The position numbers and the translations under genes are program-made. DNA of 55,837 nucleotides, counting the filler, from Jimgerdemannia flammicorona (taxonomy: Eukaryota): assembly GCA_003990765.1 (NCBI GenBank). It is 3 parts of 3 records of this genome, joined end to end, with 100 filler letters (N's around TTAATTAATTAA, not from the genome) between each part and the next. Parts side by side here need not be neighbours in the genome. Positions count along the whole stretch, not along the records: positions 1 to 18,549 come from RBNJ01002182.1; 2 more parts are not named here. The stretch is one strand, 5' to 3'. A model generated the notes under the pieces. It made no database searches and was not told where the DNA came from. It worked only from the letters and a program-made list of their open reading frames with translations. Positions 29 to 55,760 of this stretch are shown in pieces (within the stretch, counting starts at the first letter, position 1; the number at the start of each line of letters is the position of its first letter).

Positions 29-31
<3 letters not shown>

Positions 32-2431: not shown

Positions 2432-2454
2432 TTGGAATAATGTTTAGAGGAAAG

Positions 2455-12571: not shown

Positions 12572-12607
<36 letters not shown>
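12493..12607 (+). mobile_element. 5'-truncated LINE-A 3' end with long poly(A) tail
   Basis: GTAATAAAGGGCAGTCTAAGTGACTATAAAA matches the copy-5 terminus GTAATAAAGAAGGAGTCCAAGTGACTATAAAA. Confidence 0.85.
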
Positions 12608-12615
<8 letters not shown>

Positions 12616-12625
12616 GGTTACTTAC

Positions 12626-12819: not shown

Positions 12820-12903
12820 GGTGGAGTTGGAATACCGAGCCTGCGAATTCGATCAAATGTGTTGAACTTAGTAAAAACCAGATAATGCGAGGAACTCACT
12901 GGG

Positions 12904-12910
12904 TTATATA
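12904..12910 (-). promoter_or_regulatory. Candidate TATA box of the chitinase-like gene
   Basis: TATATAA ~85 nt upstream of the ATG; a possible 5'UTR intron (12899-12841) is a competing reading. Confidence 0.4.
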
Positions 12911-15900
12911 CCTTTTCTCTGCTGGCTATTTACTAAATTGCAAAGCATACAATCTTCGCAAGCTTAGTTGTGACATTAGCTTCCGCGAGACACCCGAAAG
13001 TATCGGTGCCACAATTTCTGTGCGCAATTCATGTAAATGATGTTCTTAACCCCACTTGTCTTCGCTCTACGACATCATGAACAATCCCCCCTCCATGGCT
13101 GTAAGGATCCGATAAGACAGTTCAAGATTCTAAAGCACAGAAACTCGGTTGTTTCTGGCGATTCGAACTCCAACGGCCCGGATTGGTGGCTGTCTCATTT
13201 AGAATCTGCAATTGTTGCATATTAACCCGAGGTTGGCGAAGTAAGCTTGTGTCGTCATACCAAGTTTTAGAGCGACACGAGGGTAGAAGTTATTATAATC
13301 TGAAAATGAAACGATCGAGTGTAGAAGATCGATTCTCCACGAATTGTGTAACGTCTTTATATAAACCCGACACAACGGATGAATGACAAACTCCTAAATG
13401 CAGCTACCAGCTGAGGGCGAGAAAGGTGTTCAACCCAATAAACTCGGTATTCAAACAAAAACCTATATATTCTTGTTTATTAACAATGGATATGAACTTA
13501 TATACCTCGAGTCATTCAAAAGAACAAATATGGCGTGACCGATATTTCCTTTCGCCACATCTCCTTATAAGCGCTGTCCATATTGGTTCATCGTAACCAA
13601 GAATGTTTACTGCGTAGAGAGTGTAGGCTTCAGCATCTGAACTTGTGCAACACCCGGTTGTGGTAATTGTGCGTATTTGCACTGGGTAGAACTGGATTTT
13701 ACGCCACCTCTCAAAAAACAGATCGATCGGGTCTGTGCGAGATCGAAGTTCCTGGGTTCACGGGTCTTGAGAAAGCGAGATGGCCTGTTTCCGAATGAAT
13801 GAATGAATTAATAAACCTGAATGTAATTAATGAATTAACTCTAATTAATGAATTAAAAAAGCAACTGTCTTAGGCATAGCCCTACACACACCGTGAAGAA
13901 CACTGTCTCGGACCCTGAATAAGCCCACTTCTCGGGTTCTATTTCCCAGCCGAGCGGTGTCACCAGCGCATGTGGGTCCCAAACTGACTTTGACGCAAGT
14001 ATTCTTTTTCGAGGATACCCACGCGTCTGTTTTGGATCGGACCATCCCTGAAGTTTTGCTTTTCGCGGAAATTATTGAAGCCACAGGCAAGCCTATAGAT
14101 AATGCACACCAGAGCCACACTGCCGTTTCTGATACTGCCCTCCTCCCAGCAGTATTAAACGCGCTCCAACATCTGTCATGAAGAAACGATTTGCGTCGTG
14201 TTCCTGTTGTATGGTCGCACCGGAATACTTACGTTTCCATTCGTACTGCGTAAAGGAGCGTATTTAGAGTGCAAAGTCGTTACACTGTCATTTAGAGTTA
14301 CGATTTTTAAGGTCAATATGCATAGCCGGAACTAACCAAAGATCATCGGCAATGAATTCCCAGATAGCGTGGGTACTTTTTTGGTTGGGCTTGGCCAAAA
14401 GCACGCTTTTCACTACTATTTTTTGGGTATTGTCAGCCATGGCGTTAAAATTTGTATAATCTGAAATTCCAGGAATAAAAACGTCATGCTATTTCAAGAC
14501 ACATGACTGCAGAAGACTCAAACAGTTCCTGCCATTTACACATTCAGGTAACTCGGAAGAAGCGCAATGACCGTGGGCAGTGACAAACGACGCTTCAGAA
14601 TGCCACCATGTGTATAACAAGTGACATCATGAGTAACGACGACAGCCAAACTCGGACAGACAAACAAAAACAAGGCAACGGGGATTCCGTTACGTTTACA
14701 AAACAAATCTAATAACTATAAGATGACAGCGGAGCGGTTGTATGCGGAAGTCACGACACACAATGTGTTACAGATTGTCACACGCTTGGCACTTGGATTT
14801 GTTAATGAGTCGAAACTGAAAAACAAGCTCACTTTTTTTTGTTCGGTGTAGGGCATATGGCATGCAGTTATGTGCATCCCTCTCAAGAAAGGCTCCGACT
14901 ATGAATTTGAAACTACTCTCACGGCCAGAGAGATTTATCGGGTCATCCGAAATAGAAGTAACCTTACGGGGCGGCACTAGTGCCATAATCTCTGTCTCCT
15001 TCAAAACATATCGCACAAAGCCATGAGCACTTGTACATACAACCACAGTTCTGTCATGCAGAACGGAACCAATGTCACTCCCTTTACAATTCCACAGAAA
15101 GCTGGGATGATTTATCTGCTTTCTTTAATTAAACGGAAAATTATACGACACGGAGTGTATCGCCGGTTTCCCTGACCATGTTTAAACTTTTCCGGGTATC
15201 ACGTTTAGGAGTTCCGATCGGAAGTTAAGGGCAGCCAAGAATGAATATCGATGGGGCTGAACGCTTCCTACCTATCGCTATTTTGACATCTATATTACAA
15301 TTAATACCCACCTTCGCACCATACCCATCCCCTTTCATCTTTTTGATAATGTCCATTCAACCACGTAAGCAAGACACTGGTGTGTAGAGAAGTTGTAACC
15401 CTTTTCGTATAAATTAATGACTTGGCGTGACCGGTGACGCCTTCACAGGACAGTGAGGTGGAGTAGTGCGGAGATATGGTAAATTTAATGAAGTAAACAA
15501 ATTTCCGGTTGTCATATCGAGAAACAGAGTGGTCTTAATGTAATTAAACGTGATCCTGATTTGCGCAAGAGTTTGTCGTTTGCCCAAAATCCTCTGATCC
15601 AAGGCCCAGTTCACGTCGTCGAATTTTGAAACGCGAGAAACGAAATATGAGATATTTGCTTTCAAACACCAAAATCCCGGAGGTGACGTCATAGCCGAGG
15701 CGCCAAGCTACACACACCGATTTGATCGTATTATCAAGTTACGCATAATAATACGACATTCGACATCCATTTGTCGTTACTACTGGGAGTCGTAAAGCGT
15801 AGAAAGCATTATTCGTCGATATTTGCAAGAGAAATGATTCCGCATATCATCATCAGCGTTCCACATAGTTCGTACTCATCGTATGAGTCAAATGTATATC

Positions 15901-16799
15901 CAAATTCACAGCTGTGATAAAAACTAGTCGTATTGAACGGGTGACAGACATTTATTCCAATGTTCTCTTCTCACCGGAACCACCGTTGAGTCCGAAGAAG
16001 AAAATAAACAGCCCTGACGGATCGCGTAAAAGCAACCTGTACGCATACTAACCACTGAATGGTGGCTGAAGAGAGTGGTGGAACTGAGGGGTGGTAGCTG
16101 GGTTCTGCTGATGAAGAGGGTCTGGGAGATAAGGTGCTCACCAAGAGGGGCTACCGGGGATCTACTATCCTTGGTTGGGCTTCAAAATAGTGGACATATG
16201 AGGTTTAAGGGCTTCTGGTGGGAGTAGTTGATAGGGCTCACTGCATCAGAATTTGCTGGCAGGGGGATGAAGGAGAGGTGCCTTGGGGCCCAGGTGGGAT
16301 TGAGTGTTGCTGGGGGGCACCCTCCTTATAGACTTTGATATTGAGGATGGAGTCAAGTACCAAAGGAGGATGGAACAAGATGTATGGCCTCAAGGTTGGC
16401 AGATAGTGAATATTGAAGAGGAGTGGAACTGGAATGGAGTCTGGGCCTGGAGTGTAGAGATGAGATAATGAGTGCTGCCCAAGTACTGGGTGGTTTGGTG
16501 ATACATGCTGCAGAGGAATATCATACTCAACTTTCACTCAGACCACCTTATGGAGGAGGGGAGCTTTGACTGTGAGGAGTGCTATAATGTAGGACAAGAA
16601 GGGAAGTTTGTGCAGATATCAGAATATTAGCTGAGAGAGTGTATAGTACTTAGCAATTTTTGGTTGGTAGTTGGGAATAGGTTGAGTGTGATATATAGGG
16701 AGGATAGTAAGAGGGGTCACTGGGAGAATCTGAGAGATAGATTGGTAGGGGGGGGTAGGGAAGGAGTGGCTCACTTTGGGTTGAGTATTGACTATATGG

Positions 16800-18305
16800 T
16801 GTCACGTAGTAGTCGCTGAGTCCTTCAAATATGCCAGATTCTCTTCAAGGTGTATCTCTTAGACTAACTCAAGTTGTTATAAGCAAGTTCTTATTGGAGT
16901 GCCTTCCCAAGGTCTTATAGTCCTCAAACTTCTTATCTTTAACTGTCTTGTTATCTCTTAGATTGCTTGTAAGGGATTGTGTGTAAGTGAACTGGAACTG
17001 ACTTTATTTCAGAGGAAATAAGGGAGGTATTTATACAAAATATGATTCAATGGTTGCTAAGATATAAAGCTAAATATAAATTCCAATAACTAAAACTACT
17101 GAGTTCCAGAGCTGGCATTATTTAGTACTACATCAAAATACCGGTGCTGGAACAATTTCGCGTCACCTCAGAATACCAGTGCTGGCATTATCCAGTGTTA
17201 CATGAGAATACCAGTGCTGGCATTATCCAGTGTAACAAAGAACTTTAGAGCAGAAAGTTCAGGACCATGGGGGCTTTATCATCATCATCATCACTGAAGG
17301 AGATGAGATCCGCGAATTCGTCATGCAGGTCACGCATCTCGCGTACTTCGGGTATGTTGCATGGGATGACGTCATCGCCGATGACGTCATCACGTTCGGC
17401 GGGGAAATCGGGGACAAGATTTGGAGCTCTCCAATCTATGAGGTTCTCTTCCACAAAATAGGGGACAAATGTGGGGTCTTGGGGGGATCTAACCCAGATG
17501 CTTGGGCCTTAGAATACTGAGATCAATCCTTGCAGGAATTGGTCTGGGTTGTCCTGAAGGATAGGGTGCCAGAAGTCTTCTACTTCTTCACTGTTGAGGG
17601 TGATGGTGGACTGGGCTTCTGTAGCTACCCTGGCTTCTAGTGCATTGATGCAGCAGGATGACAGGTCTCTGAAGTCTGAGACTCTAACATACTCCAAGTT
17701 GGGGATCGACCATGGTGCATGCCTGAAGATCTGATGGATCTTCTTTGCTGTCCTTGCCTCACATAGGTCTATGGGGGTGGCATCTTGTAGCTCTTGAGGG
17801 CTGGCCTGTGGGAACTCCCAGCAGAGGAGGTTTCCTATTTCATACTCCTGCCATATTTGGAGGCATTCGGTAGTGATGGTGATTCTTGTTTCCATTTCAC
17901 GGTGGTAGAGGATAAAGTGATAAGGGTCTGCAGTACCCAGGTTGACGCTAGGAGTCCTTCTTGAGTGGGTCCTCATGGCTCTTCTAATGTCTTGAAACAT
18001 CCTTTCCTCGACTGAGATACCTTGATGATTCCTTGACCTTGAGGTTTGGCGGGCAGCAGGCATTTTGTTTGTGGTAAGTCTTTGAGCTATTTTGGGATTA
18101 GGGTTCTTGTTGGCTGCTGCTACTGCAGTTCCTTGATCCTTCTTTTATATTCTTCAGGATGCTTGTGCTGTGGTTACAATGACTCACAGTTGGTCATCGT
18201 TGCTCATCTCGCATGCTGTATGATCTTCTTGTACTCTGATTCTTGTGGCTTGTAAAGAAAGGCTGTCTCCTGTGCTGATATCATCATTCTGGGGTCACCG
18301 TTACA
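16800..18305 (-). mobile_element. Solo LTR (1506 bp) with 4-bp target-site duplication ATGG
   Basis: Termini TGTCAC...GTTACA; ATGG at 16796-16799 and 18306-18309; removal restores LINE sequence GACTATATGGATAGAG (cf. 55501 GACTATTTGGATTGAG); minus-strand TATAAATA (17035-17028) and AATAAA (17008-17003). Confidence 0.88.
17245..18063 (-). pseudogene. LTR-embedded accessory ORF, 272 codons with one internal TAA
   Basis: Track ORFs 17509-18063 and 17245-17454 are in frame with no other stop between them; homologous to 39613-38630. Confidence 0.75.
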
Positions 18306-18549
18306 ATGGATAGAGATAGGGCTAGTGGGTCATTGGCTGTTTGTGTTTGAGGAAGGGAAGCATTTGAGTCTGGGGGAGCAGTTGTTGAAGTGGGAAGGGT
18401 TGATAGAAGATATCTTGATAGGCTGGTGGCTGGGATGGAGTCTGTAGGATAGTCAGTAACACTGTTTGGTAGAGAAAATTTATAGGCAAAGTGAGGGGAC
18501 AGTTGGAGTGATAGATGGTAAAATAGTATTCAAATATGAGAGTATAGGG

Positions 18550-18649
18550 NNNNNNNNNNNNNNNNNNNNNNNNNNNNNNNNNNNNNNNNNNNNTTAATTA
18601 ATTAANNNNNNNNNNNNNNNNNNNNNNNNNNNNNNNNNNNNNNNNNNNN
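18550..18649. other. Artificial contig spacer
   Basis: 44 N + TTAATTAATTAA (stops in all six frames) + 44 N. Confidence 0.97.
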
Positions 18650-18729
18650 TAAAAAAAATAAAACTTGTAATTCCTTTGGATATATTTATAATTTATTTAA
18701 TATAAATGTAAAATTTTTAAAATATAGGC

Positions 18730-21700
18730 AGAAATATAAAATACATAGTATGGTGAGGTGTGGGCATGAGTCAATGAGAAAGCATAAGGAATCATCAGAA
18801 ATATCTGGTAATACCTACGCACTGCCAAGGTGATCTCAATCTAGTTTCAATATTGGCAATAATTGGTAAGTCCCAACACTATAGAGCTTCAAAGGAGATC
18901 AGTGTAGTCCTTAATGTCTAGCTGAGAAAAATCAGGATACCATGTTTGCAGGACTTGTTCAAACAGATAAGCCAATATGGGTAGGTTATGTATTTCAAGT
19001 GTTCATAGTTTTGGAAGAGTGAAGCTATAGTCATAATAGGCTTGGGTGCTTGATAGGTGAGTAAATGTATTGATCCTCCTCAAGGTGAGGGTCTCGAGTG
19101 ACTTGAGAAGATCTTTAAGTATTCTACTATATTCAAAAAATGGAAAGGTATCATTATAGCTCCTGACTATTTTGAGGGTTTAAGTCATGGTTTGGTCCAG
19201 GGTCAGTCAAGTTAAGCATCTTGTGATTTTAAAAAAAATTGATTGAAAAATGTTCAAATAAGGTTTTTGCAATTGAAGAGGTCAATTTCAATGTGATAGA
19301 TAGACATAACAAATAGCTCCTTTCTCTGCTACCTTACTGGTCACAAGGTTTGGTAGGTGACCTTCCAAGTCCCCTTTTCCCTATTATTACCCCCTCTACC
19401 TTGGGTTGGTTTGCTGTGCCTGCAGGGGCATGGTGGGAGGAGAGCAATGGTGATGAGTTGTCCCTTTATCAGTGTCGAATCAGTACTTCCTCCACTTTTT
19501 TGCAGATTCCGGTGTCTTCAGCTGCATCTGGGGTATACCCATTTTGGTGCAGTACCTTCTTCCTTTTGCCATCACCAACAAGGAGTTGTCTCAGTATATC
19601 TTGGGCTACATAGGGAGTCAGCTGACCTTAGATATCAAGTGCTCAGTATAGGTTACCTGCAGGTCCTCAGTACCTATGGTGGGGCCCTCTGGCTTGGGCA
19701 AGCTTTTCGGTGAGTGTGGTTCTAGTGTAGGTGGCTGTTTTTCGGGTATTGTCAGGATGGGAGGGGAGATGGTCATCACAGATAGGAGGAAGGGCATTAA
19801 CAGTGAACCAGTAGGGTGCCAGGCTGGGGGCGGTTGTCGGGGCTGGGGCAGGTACTGCTTCAGTGGGGCCTTTTGATTGGTGCGGTGTGGTTAGGTAGTA
19901 GGTGTCACTCTTGACTTCTTTTGGTGGTCAGCAGGGTTGGGCCCCAGTCACCAGGGGGGGTTGGGGGGCCTGAGGCTACCCATTTCAGGCATCTTGGCTG
20001 CACTCAACTAGAACCAGGAGCTGACATGGCAACATGATTGAGGCCCATAGGTTTGAGTAGTGGAGTATTGGGGGTTTCCTCCTACCTCATGTATAAGTCC
20101 TTTACTTACCTCAACTGGGAGAACCAGGTCCTACCCACTGTGTTGTGCTTGATGAGGGTTTTTCTTTGCCTGTCATTCTCTTTGGGGTGGCAGGGGCTAT
20201 TCTATTTGGCTCAGGTATGGCCTTGTATATATGTTGGGTTCTCAGGTGTGTGCTTTTGGTCATTGGCATATGGTTGGGTTTCCCCTGGTAGTAGGGAGAG
20301 CATGGTGTGCAGAATGAGGTACAGGCCAACATAGGCTCTGCTATGCTTGACATGGTCAAGCTGCTGGACAATAGCTAGCCTAGGTTAATAGGGGGGCAGT
20401 GCTTGGTGGGTGGTGGGGGAGGGTTTTGGCCAATATAGTCTGGGTTCTCTTCCAATAAAAATCTGCAGGACATGAGTCCATTAAAAAAAAAAAAAAAAAG
20501 ATGGACATGACAAAGTCAAGCATGGGATCTATTTTGCCATTCACTTTAAGACTCGTAATGTAGCTGATACAGTTGATGCTGCCATGTGGCACTCTTTTAT
20601 GCTTAAGATTCAATGAGACCAAGAGGTGCTCTCAGACTTCTAATGCTTCTTGGTGATATCACTTAATGAAAATTGGATATTCTCCTAGAGTAGCGGAAAG
20701 GTGGTAGCATCCCAGCTATATGAGATAAGTGAGCAGTTGAATATGTCAGCACAGGAAACATGGTTGTGGATGATGTCTCCTTGGTCAAGTTCATGGAAGA
20801 ATGTTGTGAGTGTTTCAATGAGTAGAGGTGAAGCTACCATGATAAGAAGATGGTTTACAGAAAGACAACCTGGTCTATAATTCACAAGTCATGTTCACAT
20901 CATCTCAACACTATTACTTTTATTGTCAAATGCTTAAAAATTATTAAATATATAATTTTTAATATGGCAGATTTTGACAATGACCTGCTATATAATTTTT
21001 TGATATAAATTAGGCTTGGTAAAAACACTTTGTCCGAAAAAGAAAGAATTATTAGGTATCTCATTATCATAGTAATTAAGGTTAATTCAATGGCTCATAT
21101 AAGGATTTTAACTAGAAGAATTAAAAGAATGGGAGATTGTTTTTATTGATACTCTAGTATCATATAAATATTGATGATGTTTCTATTGATGACATTTCCA
21201 TCTAAGCATAAGTCACTCAAGAAATTTCCATCACTCGAGTTATACTTTCAACAGAGAGATGACAACATTTCTTTCATTCATGTATATAGCTGCTCATGTA
21301 TGACCTCTTCTATTTATGTTTATTTTATTTATGGTTCAATATGAATTTTGTCTTAATGAGATATTTATTTGAAATTATTCTACAAAGAACTTTCCTTCAG
21401 GGTGAACATCCAATATTGCAAGTATTTTTAAAAAAATAATGGAGTATTATTGATTAACATTGCGAAAAGATTACATTTTACTCTGTCTCATTCAGAAAAT
21501 GGTAAACACTTGGGATTAAGGAAGGAAGGCATAGACCCCTGTTTATTGTTATTGTTTGCAATAGTGTGATTCAGATAATTATGTTAAAATATAGTGATGG
21601 TATTCTGTGATATTATTGTATTATTTATTTTGGTTGTGCCAAATTTGAAATTATGATAAAAGGATTAGATCTAAGGCAACAATATTGTTAGTGAATTCTA

Positions 21701-23329: not shown

Positions 23330-23791
23330 TGTAACATAGCAAACACTTAACCTTGGAAGTATATCAGATTTCTGTATCTTGAAAACTTAATCTTCTTTGA
23401 CTCTACAGAGTTCTTGGATGCAGTGGTGGGTGAGTTTGAAGTGTATCTGCCTGCAGGCTTACTAGTTCCTTGCTTTCTCTTTGTTTTAAACTATTTCGAT
23501 CTGAGGTTTATTCACTCTAAAATACTGGGTTATTTATACAAGTTTGTTAGCTATAAGATGGCTAAGTAATGAGTCATTTTGCAAGTATTAGATCTTTTAA
23601 CATCTGCTAGAATTCTACTGATTGCCAACTTTCTAACATCTCCTGAATCTTTGCAAACATTAAAGTTTCTGTACTTTGCAGAATATAACTGCTATTTGTA
23701 TGGCTATACTATATTGGAAATTGGGTTCAGGTACCATGATCAAATGTCTAATTCCCCTGATTCATGTTACTAATTTGGATCAACCATCACA
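23330..23791 (-). repeat. G2 3' LTR
   Basis: Direct repeat of 29572-30011; TG...CA termini; follows the PPT. Confidence 0.92.
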
Positions 23792-23832
23792 ACTTCCTTC
23801 TGAATAGGTGATTTATCTCTGAAATATCCTAT

Positions 23833-24198
23833 TCACTTGAACTCCCAGGCTTCTACAATTTGTATCTCCTTGTACTGTGTAATTTATGCTATTACATTCT
23901 TCCAGTATTGTCTCCTGATATATCCAAATTCTCCTGGAATTACTTCTTGGAAATGAGTTAGAGCTGGCTCATCATCCTTGAATAACTTGTATACTCTTTT
24001 GGCGATCATTATCTGAGTGTAGGAGAGCTGACATTCTCTGATCCAGTCTTCTTTTCTCATTTTTGGCTTTGAATTCAGTAGTTGTCCTAGTCTGAAGTAT
24101 TTCTGAAACTCGGTTCAGTTCTGGTAGGCCTTGAAGTGTGAAATTTGTAACAAGTGGGTCTGGACTATACTCTGGATGCTATTAAAGTATTCCTCCAT
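23833..24198 (-). pseudogene. G2 extra ORF3 downstream of integrase (~121 codons, two internal stops)
   Basis: MEEYFNSIQSIVQTHLLQISHFKAYQN*TEFQKYFRLGQLLNSKPKMRKEDWIRECQLSYTQIMIAKRVYKLFKDDEPALTHFQEVIPGEFGYIRRQYW... Confidence 0.65.
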
Positions 24199-24289
24199 TA
24201 TAAGTGGCTCAGCAGAACACCACTGTCTTTCTATGGCTCATTGGGTGGCACTTGTGATCTTGAGGGCAGCTGCATTACTTCATTGACTG

Positions 24290-27200
24290 TTTATGATACT
24301 TCTTGAGTCGGTTTCAGTAAATGGTAGTGGGGATGATGGTGCCTGAGAGTTTCCATAACTAAAAGGTAGTTCCTTTTATATCTTGCACAAGGTAAGGTCC
24401 TTTCCACTTAGGCTCCAGTTTTCATGACCATGAAGCTTCTACTATGTTCTGATATACTAGGACTTTGTCTCTTATCTTGATAATCTCTAGTGGCTTGTGA
24501 ATTTTTTCTGCATTATTCTGTTATAGTGTCTGCACCTTATTTATGTAATCTTTAGTCTTCTTTCTAATTTTGTATTGTTTTCATATCTCTGCATTCATAT
24601 GCTTCCATATAGTATCTCCATTAGATGATAGGGTTCCTTGGGAACTTTCTTCTCCAAATAGCATTTCTTGAGGGGTAAAGTGGGTGCTTTGTGATTGGAT
24701 ATCTCGGAGAGCAGATAATGTCATTGACAGATAGTGATCTCAGTTTTTGTAGTTATCACAGATCTTGACAATAACATTCTTAAGAGTCTTGTTGGTCCTT
24801 TCCATCTGTCTATTTCCTTGAGGGTGATAAGCTGTAGTCCGAATATGCTGAATCTTGTACTTCTTGTAGAGAACCTCAAAGAACTGGTTCACGAATTCTG
24901 TCTCTCTGTCTGTGGTTACTTACATTGGGGTCTTGAATCAGCAGATAATTTCTTTGTAGAAGAAATCAGCAATTGACTGTGCATTGGCTTCCTTGAGGGG
25001 TCCTGCCTCTATCTATTTGTGAAGAGGTCTACAATGATGATGAAGTATTGGTTACCAGTCAGGGTCAACTATAGAGGACTGATTACATCTATTGCAATGT
25101 GGGCAAATGGTGCTGGTTCTATATATGATGATTCTGGGGCTTGATTTTGTTAGTCTTGTTTCTGTTTCTGGCATTTGTCACATATCTTGACAAATTGTCT
25201 AATATCTTCCTCCATTCCTGGCCACTGCATTGTTCTTCTTGCTTTATTGTATATATTGGTTCCTCCTAGATGGCCAAGTTCATGTACTGATTGCATTGCT
25301 TGCTCCTTCTTGTATTCTGATATAACTAGTAGTTTTCCTTTCTTTAGTATTTCTCCATCAGTCTCAAATTGTTTCTATGTTCTATATTGATGATCATTTG
25401 TGTCCATTCTTCTAGATATTATAGCATCTTTCACTATCCCAGATATGTGATGATTCTATAGTAGAGTTCTTTATTCATGATTAATTTGCTGTTTGGGAGT
25501 CCTTCAGAGTGTCCATGAGAGGGCATCTGTATTGACATTAGTTCTTCCTGGGCAGTGCATGATTATTATATCATATACTTGTAACTTCATAATCCATCTG
25601 ATATAGATTTCTTTGGGTTGCCCAGTGGTCAGTAGCCAAGTGAGGGCTGAGTGGTCCATCTGGATGATAAAGTATCTTCCAGCAAGATAGTAGTAGAACT
25701 TTTCTACAGCCCAGATGACTACGAGATACTCCAACTTGTATAATTGATATTCTTTTTCAGCTCCTCAGGTTCCATGGCTGAGGTATGTAATGATATACTC
25801 TACTTTGTCCTTCTTTTGAACTAAGACTGCTCCTAGTCCTTGTGCACTTACATCTGTCTAAAGGATGAATTCTTGGGTCCAGTCTGGTCTTCTAAGGATG
25901 GGTGCCTGAGTCAGTCTGACCTTGAGCTCATCAAATGCTTATTGTTGCCTACCTGTCGATTGGAATTAGATGTCCTTTTTAGATTGGGCTTGTGATGTTG
26001 GAAAATCCCCTAATAAATCTGTGATAGTAGGAGGCAAGTCCCATGAAGGCTTGGACTTCAGTAATGGTAGTGGGTCTTGGGTATCCTGCTATTGCTTATA
26101 TCTTGAGGGGGTCCATATATATTTCATCTTGGTTGATAACATGACCCAGCTAGGAGATCTCAATTTCTGCAAACTTGTATTTCTTGGGCTTGATGTAAAG
26201 ACTATGTTCTCTCAGTTTCTCTATTATCTGCTGGATGTGCTGCAGATGTTCTTTGGCTGTCTTGCTGTAGATAATTACATCATCTATATAAACCATCATC
26301 TATCTTCTTATATCATAGTGGAAGATTTTGTTCATTATTCGCTAGAAGCTTGCTGGTGCATTGCACATTCTGAATGGCATTTGTAGGTAGATGTAGGTTC
26401 TGTCAGGGGTTTTGAAGGCTGACATTTCACTTACTGCTTTAGTGAGACCAATTTGATAGAATTCGGAGTATAAGTCCAAGGTACTGTAATACTGTACTTT
26501 ATCTCCTAGGGTTACAAGGATGTCACTGATAAGGGGCAGTGGTTGGTGATCCTTTTTATTGGCCAGATTGAGTTTTCTGTAATCGGTGCAGAGTCTTGGA
26601 GCGAATTCTCCTGGCTTGCTTCCTTTCTTTCAGGCTAGTATAACTGGTGAAGCCCAAGGGCTGCTGGCTTCTTTGATGATACCAGCTTCCTCCATCTGCT
26701 TGATTTCTTCTCTAAGCTATTCATGGTAGGCTAGTAGGAGGGGTCTTGCTTTCTAATAAATTGGTTCAGTGTCTCCTGTATCTACATCATAGTAGTAGTG
26801 TGGGGTCTTTTTTTTGATGTTCCTGAAATCTGTAGCAAGGACATTCTTGAATTCATAGAGTATCTTCTCAAGTTTCATTTTGAGTGGAAACTCATTTCCT
26901 ATGGTATAGCTATGCTTGTTTGTGGTTTCTTCCTTCTTGTGGTCCAGTTTGGTGATCTTGGTACTGGCAAATGCTCCTCTTCCTGTGGATCCAAATCCTT
27001 TTCTTCCTTTTTCTGTTTTATCCAGCTTCTTGACTTCCATGATCCTTAGCTGAAGAACTGGGAGGATCAACATCTGTGCTAGTCAGTCCTTCTTCTTGAA
27101 TGGAAATGGAATCATAGGATTGTGGTTTCTAGCAATAAGTAGTATTTCTCCAATATAATCGGAATCAATGACTCCTCCTTCAATTGTGATTTTGCTCCTA

Positions 27201-28213
27201 GCCTGGCTGCTTCTTGTCTTGAGGATTCTGACATGGTCTTTCAGAATGGTCATTTCCAGACCAGTTGCAAGTAGGGTGATTGTCTGGAATTCCAGTACAG
27301 TTTTCTCTACTGTGGTGATATTCATTCCGGCAGCATTTTCTGACTTGTATTCTGATAAGACTGCATTAGGGTAAATCTTCCAAATCTTGATCTTGATTTC
27401 CTCTTCATCATCACTGTCTTTGAGCAGAGCTGGTGGTTCATCATCCTCTTTCTCCCTTTTCTTTTCTTCTCTTACTTGTTTCTCAATGGCCTTCTCTCTT
27501 CTTTGATGGTAGGTTTTCTTGATTTTATCAGGACACTGGTAACACTCATTGATATACTCCATACAGTACATTCGGATCCCATGGGGGCAGACTCCTTGTG
27601 GTGCATATTCTTCTGTGATCTTCTTGCACCATTCTTCTTCACTCATCCATCCAACTTTCTTCTTTTTCTGAGTGGTCACCATGTAGGCTTCCTCTTATTC
27701 ACTCTCTTATTCCTCTATGTCAGACAGGACTCTCTTGTTGACATTGATAGGAATTCATATCTTCTGTCCTCTATAGATGATATGTATCTTCTGCACATTG
27801 AGGTCGATTATTGCTCTGGTTTTATGAAGCCATTGATTGCCAATGAGGATGTCATAGTTGGTTACATTGGTTACAATTACATCTACTGAGATGGTTGCTC
27901 CTCCAAACTTGATGGGAATATCTTTAATCTTTCCCAGAGGTGTGGCTCTTGTACCATCTGCTGTGATGAATACCAATTTGGTTGCTTCTTCAACCTCCCA
28001 ATCTAGATGGTCTACTGCATTTTTGCTGAGGAGGTATCCTCCTGCCCCAGTATCGATGATGGCTTCAAAGATTCTGTCTTCAATTTGGCAGATTGTATAG
28101 ACAAAAGTCTTGCAGTTGTCTTCACTTTCTTCTCCTGAGTCCTCTTGAATATTGTTGGCCTCAGTTATCTTCCATCCTTGTTCCTTAGTTGTTTTGGCAA
28201 GTCCAAACCTCAT
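24290..28213 (-). pseudogene. pol: G2 pol: aspartic protease, dUTPase, RT, RNase H, integrase
   Basis: IIDTGA (~28050), MVYIDDV (~26285), DHSALTWL and NTDAL (RNase H), KLEPKWKGPY (~24400). Confidence 0.92.
26980..27400 (-). pseudogene. dut: dUTPase domain within G2 pol
   Basis: All five dUTPase motif remnants: NAAGMNI, TRSS, GVIDSDYIGEI, D*LAQ (TGA where Arg is expected), RKGFGSTG. Confidence 0.9.
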
Positions 28214-28249
28214 TTGCTGTCTGAATGTTAGGATTTCTGCTAGCTGGCC

Positions 28250-29457
28250 AAAGGTTGCATTGACCTTTTATTGACTGAGATCCTTGAAGATATCATACTT
28301 GAAGGTCTTGGTTTTGCAAAGCTTCTTTTTCTTTTCTCCTTCACTAGCTGGAGTGGTTCCTCAGATGATATCTTGAACTGCTTGTTCCAGCTCTATATCT
28401 TGATCCATTTCTTCAGCTTGACTTTCTGTAGTGGTTTCTATCTGCTTTTCCACCAGGTTCTTCTTAGGTCTTCCTGGCAGTCTCTTGTACAGTTCTTTGC
28501 AGACATCTTTCTTAATAGTCTGGGCAGGATACACCTCTCATTCCTCTTCATCAGAGTCTCTAATTTCCTTAAATGTGATGATATTGGCCTGTTCCTTATT
28601 TCTAGTAGCATTGCTTGGCTGGGCCTTGTACTTGGTTTTGCTCATGTATTCATATGAGTAGTGGTCTTCCTCTCCATAGCTGTAGCAGGTACCTTTCTTC
28701 TTGTCTGTAGTAGTGGCAAACTTCTGAATTGGGTGGTGATCTCTTCCTCTGATTTCTTTTACTATATCTCCTAGGTGAGCAGTCATTTCAGCAAACTGCT
28801 TGGTGAGCTCCTCTATAGGGTTACTGTTTCTCTGCTGCTCTGTAGCTCTTGGCTGAGGTGTGTTTCGACTGATCATTGTGGTAGAGATTAACTAGTTGCC
28901 TTGGGTGCTTTGATTCCAACTCCAGTAACTCTTTCCATTATATGGTCTTGTGGGTGTCTGGCTATCTAATATTGCTGAGCATAGGTGATCTTCTGTGGCA
29001 GATCCAAGACTACTGGTGATAAGCGGATGGCCATAGTTATCTCTGGATGGACTCCTTTCATAAAGGTTGCTTTGGCTACTTGATCTCAGATAGCATCAGC
29101 ATAATCTGCAAGGATTATCTGATATTGGATTCTAGTATAGAATGTGTTTGGGTCCTCACTCATTCCTTGGTATATTATATTGAGCTGATCCTTCAGGGCT
29201 TGCTTGATCTCATTTATGTAATATGTATTTTGGAGCCAGGTCTTCTGTTCTATCAGTATAGCATTGGCATCATTTCCTGCATAAGTTGCAGCTGTGAATG
29301 CTGCTCTAGCAGGACCTCATAGGCTGAAGAGTATGAGAACTACTTGCTGTGCTGCCATCAGTGTCCTTACAGTGGCATACTGCTTAAAGTTATCAATGAA
29401 AGTGATGATTGATTTGTCTGAGGTATATCTATGGAATACTGGTAGTCTCATATCCAT
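28250..29457 (-). pseudogene. gag: G2 gag with decayed zinc knuckle
   Basis: Lies between PBS and protease; CYSYGEEDHYSYEY fits decayed CX2CX4HX4C spacing. Confidence 0.75.
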
Positions 29458-29571
29458 TTTGTCTAAGTATCTTGACTCAGTTTGTGTGGTTGTTTGAGTG
29501 GTGGCAGTTATTCATTATTCAGCTTAAAAGTGAGGGATTCATCTTGAATCACTAGCCAATGGGCACCAAGT

Positions 29572-30011
29572 TGTAATGTAGCAGATGCTTAACCTTGGAA
29601 GTATATCAGATTTCTGTATCTTGAAAACTTGATCTTCTTTGACTCTGCAGAGTCCTTGGATGCAGGGGTGGGTAAGTTCGAAGTGTATCTGCCTACAGGC
29701 TTACTAGTTCCTTACTTTCTCTTTGTTTTGAACTATTTTGATCTGAGGTTTATTCACTCTAAGATACTAGGTTATTTATACAAGTTTGCTAGCTATAAGG
29801 TGGCTAAGTAATGAGTCATTTTGCAAGTATTAGATCTTTTAACATCTGCTAGGATTCCACTGATTGCCAACTGCAAACATTAAAGTTTATGCACTTTGCA
29901 GAATATGACTGCTATTTGTGTGGCTATACTATATTGGGAATTGGGTTCAGATACTGTGATCAAATGTCTAATTCTCCTGATTCATATTACTAATTTAGAT
30001 CAACTGTCATA
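29572..30011 (-). repeat. G2 5' LTR
   Basis: Repeat of 23330-23791, about 22 bp shorter; followed by a TGG-starting PBS-like sequence. Confidence 0.92.
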
Positions 30012-37517: not shown

Positions 37518-38389
37518 AAATGTGGCATCAGTTATGTATAATGAACTTCAACTGCATGGCTCAAAGTGCCACTGGTGAAGTGCGCGATGGATAACTGAGT
37601 ACATTCGTGACAGTTATGGGTCGATGATCACATGACGGATTATTCAATTCATGCAGTAATTGATAATGGGGAGGTCGTTTGGTTGTTCAATGGCTCAGGA
37701 CGTCGATGGCTCAATTGTTTAGTGGAAAAAGGTATTGTTGCTAACAGAGGGTAGTTATTATGCTGGCTAAGTTTCCTGGTGGCGATTAACTTGTCGGCAA
37801 ACTCGGCGACAACAGGCTTGCTCTTTATGCGGTCAATTAAAGTGGTCCATAGCGCAGTAGCTAGGAAAAATGGAGGTTGATGGCTTACTCATCCATCTTA
37901 ACTTGTTAGGTTCCTGGCAGTTGTTCGGGTCTTTGGCAGCAGGTCGGCCTTTGGTGGTCTAGTATCCTTTGGCTAGGTATCCTTGGGTTTCTGGGTCTTG
38001 AATCTCGAATGGCGGTCTCGAATACACGGTCCAAATGGCGGTCTGGTCTTGAATCCTTGGCTGGGTCTCGGGTCTTGAATGGCAGCAGTTGGGTAACATT
38101 TTCTTTCCATGGCAAGAGAAAATTCTTTAACTCAAACCTCGAGCAATCATTGCTCTAGTTATCTTGTTCTCAGAATTTATCCGGTCTCTTAGAGGCAGTG
38201 TGTTTTCTCTGTAAAACTATCTGGCTGAGGCTTTATTCACTCTAAGAATATGGGTTATTTATACAAGTTTGCTAGCTATGGGAGAGGGGGCGTGACTAAG
38301 GCTAAAGTATACTACATTGTGGCGAACTTATGCTATTGGTTTGCACGATGCGAGGTGCAGGCTATTGTTTACTACAGATTGGGTTGTAG

Positions 38390-38600
38390 GGGATAGCAAT
38401 GCTGGATTCGGACTTGCTGACAAAATGCTGAAAATGGCGGCACTGGATAGCAATGCTGAATTCGGATGAGCTGATATGATACAATGATTGTTGCCAGAAA
38501 TGGTTGTGGAGGGTGGCAATGCTGAATTTGGATCTGCTGACAAAATGCTGAAAACAGTGGTACTGGGTAGCAATGCTGGAAACAGACTTGCTGACAAAAG
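38390..38600. repeat. Imperfect ~54-69 bp tandem repeats in G3 LTR
   Basis: Four copies of GCAATGCTG(G/A)A, three followed by GCTGACAAAA. Confidence 0.8.
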
Positions 38601-38629
38601 CTGGGTTCTCATGGCTGATGGGTGGTACT

Positions 38630-39613
38630 CTAGAGGAAATAGTACCCTTTGTCTGTGGCGGGCAAATCTTGCTGGGTTGTGATTTCTTCTTCATCATATC
38701 TCTCCTCAAAGGGGGGAAGTGCCGGCCAAGAGGTGAGGGGGTAGAAAAGTGGCCAGTCATCTTCAACAATATTCTCCAACCCTTGAACAGCTTGAATGCG
38801 GACAGAGGACTGGTAGACTCTCTATTGCTCCTCTTCTTCTGAAGGCTCGTCAGTTTCGGTGTCAGAGGGGGTTTCTTCAGGGGCAGAGTCTTGGAGTTCT
38901 TGGGCCTCCTCTTCAAAGATAGGAACTTCTTGGACTTCTTCTTGATTCGGTTCCCAAATGATGAGGTGTGAATTGTGGCTGACAGGGTGGTGGGTGGTTG
39001 GAGTAGCTCCAACAGGTGTCTCTATAGTGATGGGCAGTCCTTCAAATATCTCTATAAGACTCATTAGGTGACCTTGATAGTTGTCTCAGAGTGGGGTGGT
39101 GTGGAAACCTAGCTGAGTAGGTTTGGTTTGTTAGCTTCCTATGGCAATGTAGTTGCTGCCAATAGTATTGGCTACTTCAGATTCTATCCAGTCAGCATCT
39201 TCAGTTGAAAGGTGGGAGAGGCTGCCAGCTGTTACTCCTTGCAAGTGTGCTATAGCCCAGGGAATATGGCGGAAGATTTGATGGACGTGGAGGGCTCTCT
39301 TGATTAGCAGGCTGGTGGTTAACATTTCGGCAATGAGGTCTTCCTGGTCGCCTTCTTGAGTCTCATTGCAAAGGCAGTGTCCGATTTCATAGTCATGCCA
39401 GAGGGTCATTTGTTCGGTAGTGTCTTTGAGCTATTGAGTCATTATATACCAGTAGTTGATGAAGTGTCCAAGGTCCTCAGTGTAGAAGTTCAAGTGTTCG
39501 GAAGTATCTGGGCACCAGATGGCCTTCTTGATAGCTTCAAAGATCAGGGTCTTTGGGTCAGGCAAAGGAGTAGAGTGGCGGGAGGTCTGGTTGGTTCAGC
39601 GAATGGGAGGCAT
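38630..39613 (-). pseudogene. LTR-embedded accessory ORF (~327 codons, several internal stops)
   Basis: MPPIR*TNQTSR..., then in-frame track ORFs 39131-39409 and 38822-39064; aligns to 18063-17245. Confidence 0.7.
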
Positions 39614-40662
39614 TGTGTGGTGGGTACTTGGTTCTTTGGTGCCAATCCTTGAGGCAGAGTATGGTTCCTTAAATAACATGGTCTTCATTTTGGCTCGGAT
39701 CATCTTGTCTTCTTTTGGAGTGATCACCTAATGGGTCAGGCTATCTATTTGATTGTCATGCCATTATGTCGTCTGATCTTAGCAGTCACCGGTACTCCAT
39801 TATCAATTGTGTACATCACACTAGTTTTAGAAGATAAAAATAACTCTTAGCTCTGAATTCTCAACAACTATAAAAGTCTGACTATTATAGATAATCTAGT
39901 AAATAAGTTTTTCTTGAAATAATTTTATAGAGAATCTTGGCTATTTAATATAAAAGAAATATTAATTAGTAATAAATTAATAAAATAGAAAATAAAAATA
40001 AAATAAAAAAGTTAATAAAATAATATTTTTTAAAAAAAATAATTCTATTCCTCTTGCTTGATAACTCTTATATAATTTATTAAAATATTTCTATAAATTT
40101 ATTATTGAGCTACCAATAAACTTATATGATATTTTATAGTAGTTTTATTTAGCTTTAGTATCTTCATTTTCTTTATACTTCTTTGTAAACTTCTTTAGAC
40201 TATACTTATTATAGCTATACTTATTAAAGCTATATCTGATATTGAAGTTATTATTATAGTATTCTCTATGAGTAGTAATATAGAAGATATATATATCTAA
40301 TATACTTAATTATAATATATTTAATTACTAAAGAGTATATATATATATTACTGTAAATCATATTATATAAAAGATTTGAATTCAAATTGAATTTCAAAAT
40401 TGATAACAGTGATGTTATCTAAAAAATAGCTATTTCAGAAAATATATACTACTTTTAGTTACTAAACTTAAGCTAAAATTTAAAAATTTTAAATTCAAAT
40501 CAAATTCAAATTAAATTAGATCTTGATTCAATTTAAATAAAATTAAATTAAACCTCAATTTAAATAATTGAATTGGTCCTCAATTCAATTTAAATATTTT
40601 AAATCAAATCAAATTAGGGACAAAATTTAATTTAATTTAATCTATTCTAAGTACTAATTAAA

Positions 40663-55100: not shown

Positions 55101-55760
55101 CTAGTGGATGGCAAGGAGTTGGAATTAGAGAAGAGTGGGACTGGCATAGTGTTTGGATCTGGAGTGCCGCAGTATAAAAATGGATACCACCGAAGTACTG
55201 AGTGGTCTGGTGGTGCATGCTGAGGAGGAATGTAATGCTCAACTTCCACTCAGAGCACCTTATTATAGGGGGCTGCTTTGACTGTGAGGAGTGCCACAAT
55301 GTAGAGCAGAAAGGGGGCTTTGTACAGATGCCAGAATATTGGCTAGGAGAGTATGAGGTATTGGGAGACTTTTGGCAGATCATCAGGGACTACTTGGAGG
55401 TGAGACATAGGAGAGATAAAGTACAAGAGAGGTGAGAGGACTTGAGGGATTGATTGGTAGGAGGGGTAGGAAAGGAGTAGATCACCTTAGGTTGGGCATT
55501 GACTATTTGGATTGAGCTGGCTGGTCACTGGCTATTTGTATTTGAGGATGAGAGGTGACAGAGCTTGGAGAGCCAGTTGTCATGGTGGCAGAGACTTATG
55601 GAAGACACCTTGACAGACTGGTGGCTTGGTTGGGGGCTGCAGGGGGGTTGGAGGTACCACTTAGTGGAGAAAATCTGTAGATAGAGTGGTGGGAGAGTTG
55701 GAGTTATTAGTGAGAGGGTGATCTTTATTCATGAAGGGGTGGGGAGGGGCTCCCCTATGG
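52123..55760 (+). pseudogene. LINE-A ORF2: APE endonuclease, RT, Cys-containing C-terminus
   Basis: NMNGL, ADLFLLQD, GGDFN, APGEDGL, FLDQEKAYD, GVPQGDPLSP, FADD (~54233-54243), CFDCEEC. Confidence 0.93.

What the first reader, a model, noticed from the sequence alone, without database searches (positions are those of the whole stretch)
16800..18305. Solo LTR carrying its own ~272-codon gene in U3
Seen: TG..CA-bounded 1506-bp insert with ATGG TSD and no gag/pol. Minus-strand layout is TG - ORF (one internal TAA, plausibly from CAA) - ~35-bp tandem repeats - TATAAATA - AATAAA - CA. Known: LTR-encoded genes occur in retroviruses (MMTV sag; HIV nef overlapping U3); I do not know of one in fungal Ty3/Gypsy elements. 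Inference: the gene would be duplicated in each full element and survive solo-LTR formation, and could be a regulator, anti-silencing or targeting factor.
Basis: partly seen in the sequence, partly recalled or inferred. Interest (0 to 1): 0.85.

Follow-up and report, generated by a model that had tools for sequence, protein, structure and literature searches.

The report
Solo retrotransposon LTR carrying a gene
A 1.5-kb leftover end-piece (solo LTR) of a fungal-type Ty3/gypsy jumping gene carries inside itself a conserved protein gene of unknown function, so every LTR, even an orphaned one, could be a small gene of its own.

Summary
Window 16800-18305 is a discrete 1506-bp TG..CA insertion with a true 4-bp duplication: a paralogous uninterrupted copy of the host repeat at 55129-55707 has the 4-mer once. 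In public soil and 'organism A' contigs the same unit is high-copy with depth steps at its two ends. In other copies one end abuts a primer-binding site and the other a polypurine tract. Both junctions match those of a full Ty3/gypsy element (E2, 23330-30009) in this window, whose LTRs are only about 440-460 bp and carry no ORF. So it is a solo LTR, and the ORF lies in U3.

The 272-codon minus-strand ORF is a real gene family:
- about 14 clusters, all from jgi/ena sources, 27-90% identical, with Q at the window's single TAA;
- dN/dS about 0.19;
- 15 of 23 well-supported variants are synonymous.

A second, decayed paralog in the same layout lies at 39820-38232. No known domain or fold matched. 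Expression and function are untested, and the two-promoter and transactivator ideas are inference. I rate it a new variant of a known kind.

The parts
16796..16799 (.). Left copy of the target-site duplication (ATGG)
   Evidence: The empty-site paralog at about 55507-55510 has the 4-mer once.
16800..18305 (-). Solo LTR ('LTR-A'), 1506 bp, U3-R-U5 reading on the minus strand. Termini are TGTAACG...CGTGACA on the minus strand.
   Evidence: Repeat-family depth steps at both ends, with primer-binding-site and polypurine junctions in other copies.
18306..18309 (.). Right copy of the target-site duplication (ATGG)
18142..18149 (-). TATAAAAG, 86 nt upstream of the ORF's ATG. Candidate promoter of the ORF (P1); this is inferred.
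   Evidence: The identical GAATATAAAAG lies 65 nt before the ATG in metagenome locus L001. A TATTTAAG lies 62 nt before the ATG of LTR-B.
17245..18063 (-). ORF of 272 codons plus stop, with one internal TAA at 17509-17511. Pseudogene copy of a conserved orphan gene family.
17365..17391 (.). 27-nt stretch inside the ORF holding two perfect TGACGTCA palindromes. It encodes DDVIGDDVI.
   Evidence: Meaning unknown.
17106..17237 (-). 35-bp tandem repeats, 3.8 copies, between the ORF stop and the TATA box. Candidate enhancer; this is inferred.
   Evidence: 75% matches, score 138. A copy-number variant that skips 35 nt was seen in 2 contigs of X5.
17028..17035 (-). TATAAATA, the LTR's main promoter box (P2). 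The core is shared with the LTRs of E2 and LTR-B.
17003..17008 (-). AATAAA poly(A) signal, 19 nt after the TATA box.
   Evidence: The same spacing (17-18 nt) is seen in L001, E2 and LTR-B.
16800..17002 (-). Short R plus U5, ending in CA. In other copies it is followed by ACT plus the primer-binding site.
55129..55707 (+). Paralogous copy of the host repeat without the insertion (empty site).
23330..30009 (-). E2, a related full-length but degenerate Ty3/gypsy element (PR-dUTPase-RT-RNaseH-INT). Its LTRs are 23330-23789 and 29572-30009, with the same TATA/AATAAA core and no ORF. The primer-binding site is at 29552-29568 and the polypurine tract at about 23793-23801.
38232..39820 (-). LTR-B, a second ORF-bearing LTR-like unit. 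Minus-strand order: TGTGATG start at 39820; TATTTAAG at 39675-39668; ORF 39613-38630 with 5 in-frame stops; 120-bp x2 repeats at 38594-38375; TATAAATAA at 38263-38255; AATAAA at 38237-38232. Its 3' end is unresolved (possibly about 38089), and the contig ends at 37298.
   Evidence: (D20).

Best explanation
Window 16800-18305 is a solo LTR, read on the minus strand. It was left by LTR-LTR recombination of a Ty3/gypsy retrotransposon related to the full element E2 in the same window.

Its U3 is about 1.27 kb, against about 0.23 kb in E2. The extra length is a complete protein gene of 272 codons plus a block of 35-bp repeats, both upstream of the element's TATAAATA-AATAAA core. The gene belongs to a conserved orphan family that sits in the same place in at least three diverged LTR lineages. 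The window copy is a pseudogene through one CAA>TAA change.

Proposed mechanism (inferred, not shown):
- The ORF has its own TATA box 86 nt upstream and uses the LTR's own poly(A) signal. Each LTR, whether 5', 3' or solo, would then be a self-contained transcription unit of about 1.1 kb.
- The element's genomic RNA starts just after the second TATA box, beyond AATAAA, so the 5' LTR does not terminate it.
- The protein has a basic N-terminus, a helical core and a strongly acidic tail with hydrophobic motifs. It most likely acts in trans for the element family, most plausibly as a regulator of LTR transcription acting on the repeats next to it. This last step is the weakest, at about 0.25.
For: Shown:
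- Clean insertion with a true 4-bp duplication and an empty-site paralog.
- High-copy unit with sharp ends at 16800 and 18305 in runs X1, X5 and X6.
- Primer-binding-site junction at 16800: 10 contigs in X1 with agreement 1, and one X6 contig whose 30 shown letters equal window 29542-29571.
- Polypurine junction at 18305: 3 contigs in X5. Fourteen of 17 letters match E2's polypurine region (my reading).
- The 17-mer primer-binding site is exact next to E2's 5' LTR; 0.05 matches are expected by chance.
- E2 is PR-dUTPase-RT-RNaseH-INT.
- The TATAAATA(A), 17-19 nt, AATAAA core is shared by LTR-A, L001, E2 and LTR-B.
- No terminal direct repeats inside the insert.

Gene reality:
- 6 + 4 + 3 further protein clusters at 27-90% identity, several of them full-length and intact at 247-342 aa. 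All 6 aligned have Q at the TAA.
- dN/dS is 0.19 over 249 codons against L001, and 0.14 over the first 210.
- 15 synonymous against 8 non-synonymous among the 23 ORF sites in the 40 best-supported variants, where about 33% synonymous is expected for transitions.
- The ORF is by far the best-conserved part of the LTR between the window and L001: alignment z 51.6, against 2.5 for the spacer.
- LTR-B carries a paralog about 30% identical to LTR-A's ORF and 75% identical to the intact P0021, in the same layout.

For the promoter idea: GAATATAAAAG is conserved upstream of the ATG in the window and in L001, while the sequence between has diverged.

For a regulator: net charge is +1 to +8 in residues 1-45 and -14 to -27 in the tail for the 4 members examined. 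A CAGCAYTG motif occurs 2x and 4x in the repeats of the two ORF-bearing LTRs and 0x in E2's LTRs.
Against: - No copy was seen with two 1.5-kb LTRs around gag-pol. No genome is held, and the public contigs laid on the stretch are only about 100-250 nt, so the link between ORF and junctions rests on overlaps and on the duplication.
- The polypurine junction rests on 3 contigs with agreement 0.68.
- The only full element at hand (E2) has short LTRs without the ORF.
- What follows LTR-B shows no recognisable primer-binding site or gag.
- dS is close to saturation (pS 0.67), so the dN/dS value is rough.
- One of the 8 non-synonymous variants, taken singly, would make a stop.
- L001 lacks tandem repeats and the CAGCAYTG motif, which weakens the link between protein and repeats.
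- There is no evidence on transcription, translation or function. The two predicted models are poor (mean pLDDT 49.5 and 53.3).
Confidence: 0.8

Rival explanations
1. Deletion derivative. The true LTR is short (about 440 bp, as in E2, corresponding to 17240-16800). The ORF would be an internal accessory gene between pol and the 3' LTR, and the insert a rearranged 3' piece of an element rather than an LTR.
For: E2's LTRs are 438-460 bp and lack the ORF. The part of the insert below the ORF stop is also about 440 bp. Additional internal ORFs are known in fungal and plant gypsy elements, for example brtn (passages read; reference list).
Against: The duplication and the empty site bracket the whole 1506 bp. 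The polypurine tract abuts 18305, upstream of the ORF. No polypurine tract plus TG boundary was seen near 17240; the loose ends reported there only reflect a 1-nt deletion. Depth is continuous across the unit apart from the variable C-terminal coding part.
Confidence: 0.07
2. Passenger. The ORF is a host gene, or a fragment of one, captured into U3. It is carried along without any role for the element.
For: No homology to any retroelement protein. A related family does without it (E2).
Against: The ORF holds the same position and layout in three LTR lineages whose proteins are only about 30-60% identical. Purifying selection is seen among element copies. All 14 or so clusters come from jgi/ena sources and none carries an NCBI or UniRef source or a name other than 'hypothetical protein', so no host gene copy was seen. 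That absence is weak evidence, because repeats are often masked before gene calling.
Confidence: 0.08
3. Autonomous-looking small unit. The 1.5-kb TG..CA unit moves on its own as a one-gene element, using integrase supplied in trans, and was never part of a full element at this site.
For: Very high copy number of the unit in run X1 (depth about 1000-2500) compared with the few junction contigs. The unit has its own putative promoter and terminator.
Against: Consistent primer-binding-site and polypurine neighbours show that it serves as an LTR. No known mechanism copies a lone LTR. Solo LTRs normally outnumber full elements.
Confidence: 0.03
4. Not a protein gene. The open frame would be kept by DNA- or RNA-level constraints of the LTR, such as enhancers or the TGACGTCA sites.
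For: Two TGACGTCA palindromes lie inside the frame. No expression data exist.
Against: There is an excess of synonymous and third-position changes. dN/dS is 0.19. Conserved residues persist down to 27-30% identity with intact frames of 247-342 aa.
Confidence: 0.02

Closest known systems
MMTV sag (superantigen ORF in the U3 of the mouse mammary tumour virus LTR). Recalled; the listing shows that 'LTR ORF' papers in the library are nearly all on MMTV.
   Same: A whole protein-coding frame lies inside U3. It is therefore present twice per provirus and is retained in the LTR.
   Different: There is no sequence or family match: Pfam gave nothing at E<=1. The host is a RIP-bearing, probably fungal genome and the element is a Ty3/gypsy retrotransposon. 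Here the ORF seems to have its own TATA box inside U3, whereas sag is read from spliced mRNAs (recalled). Function is unknown.
Foamy-virus Tas/Bel1, and lentiviral nef overlapping U3 (recalled)
   Same: An accessory gene lies at the 3' end or U3 with an internal promoter. The protein has a DNA-binding or basic part and an acidic activating part and acts on the LTR promoter. This is the working analogy for the mechanism.
   Different: This is an analogy only. No homology was found, and no test of DNA binding or activation was made. Here the gene is wholly inside the LTR.
Additional ORFs (aORFs) of plant and fungal LTR retrotransposons, for example the antisense gene brtn of Botrytis Boty/BcGypsy1 (Porquier et al. 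preprint, passages read; Vicient & Casacuberta 2020, passages and reference list read)
   Same: An extra gene of unknown function carried by Ty3/gypsy elements, including ones in a RIP-bearing ascomycete.
   Different: As far as I read, those aORFs lie in the internal region, between LTR and gag or between pol and LTR, and brtn is antisense. This ORF is sense and inside the LTR. Homology to brtn was not tested, because its sequence was not at hand.
Cassandra TRIM elements, with a 5S RNA gene inside each LTR (recalled)
   Same: An independent transcription unit embedded in an LTR and so duplicated per element.
   Different: That is a Pol III RNA gene in a plant non-autonomous element. Here it is a Pol II-type protein gene.

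Membership tests
LTR of an LTR retrotransposon (solo LTR) | TG...CA ends with a short terminal inverted repeat | tested here: met
   TGTCACG at 16800 and CGTTACA at 18299-18305 on the + strand.
LTR of an LTR retrotransposon (solo LTR) | 4-6 bp target-site duplication flanking a single LTR, with an uninterrupted target elsewhere | tested here: met
   ATGG on both sides. The paralogous repeat at 55129-55707 is contiguous, with the 4-mer once.
LTR of an LTR retrotransposon (solo LTR) | U3-R-U5 signals (TATA box, poly(A) signal) in one orientation | tested here: met
   TATAAATA at 17035-17028 and AATAAA at 17008-17003. The core is shared with the LTRs of E2 and LTR-B. Transcription start and poly(A) sites were not measured.
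LTR of an LTR retrotransposon (solo LTR) | In full copies, a primer-binding site follows the 3' end and a polypurine tract precedes the 5' end | tested here: met
   Loose ends: primer-binding site in 10 contigs of X1 and 1 of X6; polypurine tract in 3 contigs of X5 (18 rows shown, 160 not shown). The primer-binding site is identical to E2's.
LTR of an LTR retrotransposon (solo LTR) | Paired identical copies flanking gag-pol | not testable with these tools
   No genome is held. There is no second copy in the window. The public contigs are too short.
Ty3/gypsy (Metaviridae) | pol order PR-RT-RNaseH-INT | tested here: inconclusive
   Met for the related element E2 (PR, dUTPase, RVT_1, RT_RNaseH, Integrase_H2C2 in that order). 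The internal part of the insert's own family was not seen. The link is the identical primer-binding site plus leader (30 of 30 letters), the similar polypurine region, and the shared TATA core.
Retroviral U3 accessory genes (MMTV Sag, lentiviral Nef) | Sequence or fold membership of those protein families | tested here: not met
   No Pfam family at E<=1 for the ORF, nor for 18 family members beyond three chance-level hits. No PDB sequence match at E<=10. No fold match, although the models are poor.
Retroviral U3 accessory genes (MMTV Sag, lentiviral Nef) | ORF located within U3 of the LTR | tested here: met
   The ORF lies between the LTR's 5' end (polypurine junction) and the TATA box. The U3/R border itself is inferred.
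Internal additional ORFs of LTR retrotransposons (aORF, brtn) | Located in the internal region, between LTR and gag or between pol and LTR | tested here: not met
   The ORF is inside the unit bounded by the duplication and by the primer-binding-site and polypurine junctions.
TRIM/LARD (non-autonomous elements with two LTRs) | Two terminal direct repeats within the unit | tested here: not met
   Self-blastn of the insert finds only the 35-bp tandem repeats and one 27-nt inverted match.

The most novel reading that the evidence does not exclude
A lineage of fungal Ty3/gypsy retrotransposons has kept, over long divergence (proteins down to about 30% identity), a self-contained accessory gene inside the U3 of its LTR. 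The gene has its own promoter and shares the LTR's terminator. Every 5', 3' and solo LTR would then be an expressible gene. The product would be a trans-acting factor that controls the family's own LTR promoter or counters host silencing. That would make it a retrovirus-style regulatory gene in a retrotransposon, and a way in which the many solo LTRs could keep acting on the family.
Probability: 0.3. Interest if true: 0.8.

Novelty: new variant of a known kind. Interest (0 to 1): 0.66.

Why it matters
LTRs of retrotransposons are treated as non-coding control regions, and solo LTRs as inert scars or stray promoters. Here an LTR carries a conserved gene under purifying selection. If it is expressed, gene dosage would scale with LTR number rather than element number. 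Solo LTRs would remain sources of an element-encoded protein. Repeat masking would also hide a whole protein family from annotation: all relatives found come from metagenome sources only.

It also gives a natural comparison for working out what the gene does. Related elements in one genome occur with the gene (LTR-A, LTR-B) and without it (E2). Within my searches I found no report of a protein gene inside the LTR of a retrotransposon, and the 'LTR ORF' papers listed were nearly all on MMTV. These were listings and a few passages from an open-access library only, so an earlier description may exist.

Tried and rejected
Searches for more copies and context:
- Whole genome: none is held.
- Other copies in the window: none.
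- Earlier scan notes: nothing by sequence or by place.
- Related loci: metagenome contigs gave a single locus, L001. Genome contigs and viral contigs gave none by protein patterns and none by a 23-nt primer-binding-site/LTR-end pattern.
- The 4848-bp contig of P0019 and the 2375-bp contig of P0007 could not be fetched.
- Fused longer forms (600-2000 aa): none, which is weak evidence.

Function:
- Pfam: nothing (the three hits at E 0.03-0.2 are chance level).
- PDB sequences: nothing at E<=10.
- AlphaFold2 twice: mean pLDDT 49.5 and 53.3.
- Foldseek PDB and BFVD: no match at E<=0.001.
- VIA wide: best Z 5.1, on a C-terminal helical hairpin only.
- ESM Atlas: first hit 0.83, TM at most 0.33. None is usable.
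- Atlas on E2's protease gave no usable taxon.

RNA: no RNA holder is listed for the stretch. Reads were laid on X1, X5, X6 and X22. X22 (raw reads labelled organism A) laid 0 reads, which is no test.

LTR-B:
- Its 3' end and what follows could not be resolved. There is no similarity to E2's leader or gag (blastn and tblastx; weak local alignments) and no Pfam family in 3 frames.
- The MAFFT alignment of LTR-B with E2's LTRs is reliable only around the TATA-AATAAA core.

Other:
- The tRNA matching the primer-binding site was not identified. The window holds no tRNA gene.
- Motif readings of the acidic tail (clathrin box, SUMO- or LC3-interaction motifs) were considered by eye and dropped as untestable here.
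Full report
**1. The observation**

The stretch 16800-18305 (1506 bp) starts with TG and ends with CA. Its ends form an imperfect inverted repeat (TGTCACG... / ...CGTTACA). ATGG lies directly on both sides, at 16796-16799 and 18306-18309.

On the minus strand the order is as follows:
- TGTAACG at 18305.
- ATG at 18063, then 272 codons to the TAA at 17247-17245, with one internal TAA at 17511-17509.
- 3.8 copies of a 35-bp tandem repeat at 17237-17106.
- TATAAATA at 17035-17028 and AATAAA at 17008-17003.
- ...GTGACA ending at 16800.

The window itself is three contigs joined by N/TTAATTAATTAA linkers, and the insert lies in the first, 1-18549. No other copy and no terminal direct repeats were found in the window (blastn, word 7).

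**2. It is a discrete insertion with a real duplication**

The flanks belong to a very C-poor host repeat. A paralogous copy at 55129-55707 aligns to the left flank (16417-16799, 72%) and then directly to the right flank (18315-18512, 69%). At the junction the paralog reads ...GACTATTTGG|ATTGAGCTGG..., with the 4-mer once. The window has ...GACTATATGG[insert]ATGGATAGAG....

**3. It is an LTR**

I laid contigs of one soil run (X1) and two 'organism A' runs (X5, X6) on 16600-18500 at 80% likeness or more.
- 1801, 244 and 186 records were laid. Summed depth in X1 goes from 0-12 in the flanks to about 1600 in the bin that holds 16800, and drops again after the bin that holds 18305. The unit is a high-copy repeat with exactly these ends.
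- A fourth run, X22 (raw reads labelled organism A), laid no read and tests nothing.
- Of the loose ends, 18 rows are shown and 160 are not. At 16800, 10 contigs of X1 continue with one identical sequence (agreement 1), and one 246-nt contig of X6 does so for 123 nt. On the minus strand this reads LTR-CA|ACT|TGGTGCCCATTGGCTAGTGATTCAAGA, a TGG-initiated primer-binding site 3 nt after the LTR.
- At 18305, 3 contigs of X5 (median 51 nt, agreement 0.68) continue with what reads on the minus strand as ...TTCAGGAGGAAGA|TGTAACGG, a polypurine tract abutting the LTR start.

The 17-mer TGGTGCCCATTGGCTAG occurs exactly once in the window, at 29552-29568 on the minus strand; 0.05 matches are expected by chance. 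There it sits 3 nt (ACT) after the 5' LTR of a full-length but degenerate element that I call E2.
- E2's LTRs are at 23330-23789 and 29572-30009.
- Read through with X at stops, E2 encodes aspartyl protease, dUTPase, RVT_1, RT_RNaseH and Integrase_H2C2 in that order, which is the Ty3/gypsy order.
- The 30 shown letters of the X6 loose end equal window 29542-29571.
- E2's polypurine region (+ strand ...ACTTCCTTCTGAATAGG after 23789) matches the X5 loose end in 14 of 17 letters (my reading).
- E2's LTR ends resemble the insert's ends only loosely (TGTAATGTAGCAGATGC against TGTCACGTAGTAGTCGC).
- It has the same core of TATAAATAA, 17 nt, then AATAAA.

**4. The ORF is inside the LTR, in U3**

The polypurine junction is at 18305, 242 nt upstream of the ATG. 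The primer-binding-site junction is at 16800. The duplication brackets the whole unit. In E2, U3 is about 230 bp; here it is about 1270 bp, and the difference is the ORF with its leader plus the tandem repeats. E2 therefore shows that a related family manages without the ORF. It does not show that the ORF is internal in the insert's family.

What I could not show is a copy with two 1.5-kb LTRs around gag-pol. No genome is held and the laid contigs are 100-250 nt long.

**5. The ORF is a real, conserved gene**

Relatives found:
- Word-indexed search: 6 clusters at 56-89% identity, among them full-length intact forms of 247 and 271 aa.
- Exhaustive representative search: 5 proteins, down to 34-46% identity, one of 342 aa.
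- Profile search: 3 further clusters.
- All sources are jgi or ena, and no name is given beyond 'hypothetical protein'.
- All six aligned relatives have Q at the window's TAA.
- No fused form of 600-2000 aa was found, which is weak evidence.

The one relative for which I obtained DNA is L001, a 1345-bp metagenome contig. It has an intact 323-codon frame followed by about 180 nt, then TATAAATA, 18 nt, AATAAA. This is the same layout as the window's LTR.

Tests of selection:
- Against L001, dN is 0.31 and dS 1.65, giving dN/dS of 0.19 over 249 codons and 0.14 over the first 210. pS of 0.67 is near saturation, so the figure is rough.
- Of the 40 best-supported variant sites that one search lists (221 more are not shown), 23 lie in the ORF. 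Fifteen are synonymous and 8 are not, where about 33% synonymous is expected for random transitions in this frame. One of the 8, taken alone, gives a stop. The homologues have Q or R at that codon, so it probably travels with a second change.
- Region by region against L001, alignment z-scores over shuffles are 51.6 for the ORF, 5.1 for its leader, 2.5 for the spacer after the stop, and 4.8 from TATA onward.

**6. A second, older paralog in the same window**

tblastn of family members against the window finds a second locus at 39613-38861 on the minus strand. It is 72% identical to P0020 and 28-35% identical to the LTR-A-type proteins. The frame runs for 328 codons without a frameshift but has 5 stops. 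All five fall where the intact P0021 (75% identical) has R or Q.

Around it the order is again the same:
- a TG start (TGTGATG at 39820, at the border of an AT-rich block);
- a TATA-like box (TATTTAAG) 62 nt before the ATG;
- the ORF;
- tandem repeats (120 bp x2, 38594-38375);
- TATAAATAA at 38263-38255 and AATAAA at 38237-38232.

Its TATA core is 87-88% identical over 67-69 nt to E2's LTRs. Its 3' end and what follows are unresolved. The ORF-in-LTR arrangement is therefore older than the split of the two protein subfamilies.

**7. Host**

The AT-rich copy E3 (about 41003-47000) differs from E2 mostly by C:G>T:A changes. These make up 541 of 861 differences, and 270 of them are at CpA. Its indices are RIP-like: TA/AT 1.20 and (CA+TG)/(AC+GT) 0.86. 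The insert is not affected (0.74 and 1.43). RIP is known only from fungi (established knowledge). The CA and CT bias is the one quoted for Botrytis in the passages I read. This supports 'fungal', probably an ascomycete, but it names no species. CAA>TAA in the insert and the five stops in LTR-B are changes of the same type.

**8. How it most likely works**

Shown: the anatomy above.

Inferred:
- (a) The ORF has its own promoter. GAATATAAAAG lies 86 nt before the ATG in the window and, letter for letter, 65 nt before it in L001, while the sequence between has diverged. LTR-B has a TATA-like box at a similar distance.
- (b) Its mRNA would end at the LTR's own AATAAA, giving a message of about 1.1 kb from any LTR, solo ones included.
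- (c) The second TATA box lies 19 nt before AATAAA. Genomic RNA would therefore start at or beyond the signal and would be terminated only in the 3' LTR, where the ORF is carried as part of U3.
- (d) The protein has a basic start (net +1 to +8 in residues 1-45 in 4 members), a helical core that holds the invariant residues, and a very acidic tail (-14 to -27) with repeated hydrophobic motifs (DLISF, LNFLL). That is the general build of an activator. The repeats lie between the ORF and the promoter it would act on, and CAGCAYTG occurs 2x and 4x in the repeats of the two ORF-bearing LTRs and not in E2's LTRs. It is also absent from L001.

I give the regulator reading about 0.25. An anti-silencing role or some other trans-acting role is equally open.

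**9. Comparison with what is known**

By position, the closest known case is MMTV sag in U3. By proposed logic, it is foamy-virus Tas with its internal promoter. Both are recalled, and neither is a relative by sequence or fold.

Known extra ORFs of plant and fungal LTR retrotransposons, including the antisense brtn of Botrytis Boty elements, are described as internal genes. I read passages of the Porquier et al. preprint and passages and the reference list of Vicient & Casacuberta 2020. The rotifer paper (PMC5408684) held none of my search phrases.

My six searches for an ORF inside a retrotransposon LTR returned MMTV papers and unrelated uses of the phrase. One fungal hit (PMC12037069) uses 'LTR ORF' for polyprotein ORFs. 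These were listings and passages from an open-access library only, and I read no supplements.

**10. Verdict**

Function and expression are unknown. It is a new variant of a known kind: an LTR retrotransposon with an accessory gene, placed here in U3 and probably with its own promoter. Interest is 0.66.

Noticed in passing
window 18550-18649 and 37198-37297: The window is three contigs joined by N44-TTAATTAATTAA-N44 linkers. Features on different sides of a linker are not known to be neighbours in the genome.
   Followed up: yes
window 23330-30009 (E2) and about 41003-47000 (E3): E2 is a full-length degenerate Ty3/gypsy element with a dUTPase between protease and RT. E3 is a heavily mutated copy of it: 541 of 861 differences are C:G>T:A, half of them at CpA, which is a RIP-type pattern.
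   Followed up: partly
window 22957-23320: An extra, AT-rich partial LTR copy lies directly beside E2's 3' LTR (families D9 and D13). It may be a tandem or nested arrangement.
   Followed up: no
window 1-8000, 16000-21000 and 46000-55837: Long repeats show extreme strand asymmetry at ordinary G+C content: GC skew is -0.37 to -0.52 in one set and +0.3 to +0.6 in the other. The sense strands of the retroelements here are G-poor and C-rich. This is not explained by RIP alone.
   Followed up: no
window 17365-17391: Two perfect TGACGTCA palindromes lie 15 nt apart inside the ORF, encoding DDVIGDDVI. They are absent from LTR-B, E2's LTRs and L001.
   Followed up: partly
window 17304-17431: Depth of public contigs drops from over 1000 to 9-138 in X1 over the part that encodes the acidic C-terminal region. 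This part varies most among copies, including by insertions and deletions.
   Followed up: no
window 1-2659 and 5800-8447: Two copies of a repeat longer than 2.6 kb lie about 5.8 kb apart at 74-88% identity. Their ORFs gave no Pfam match.
   Followed up: no
window 32473-32952 and 52105-52671: There is a copia-type integrase fragment (rve, SH3_retrovirus). There is also a weak endonuclease/exonuclease/phosphatase match (E 0.0096, below Pfam's cut-off) that may be a LINE remnant.
   Followed up: no
proteins P0019 and P0007 (no DNA held): The family member P0019 is recorded on a 4848-bp contig and P0007 on a 2375-bp contig.
   Followed up: no
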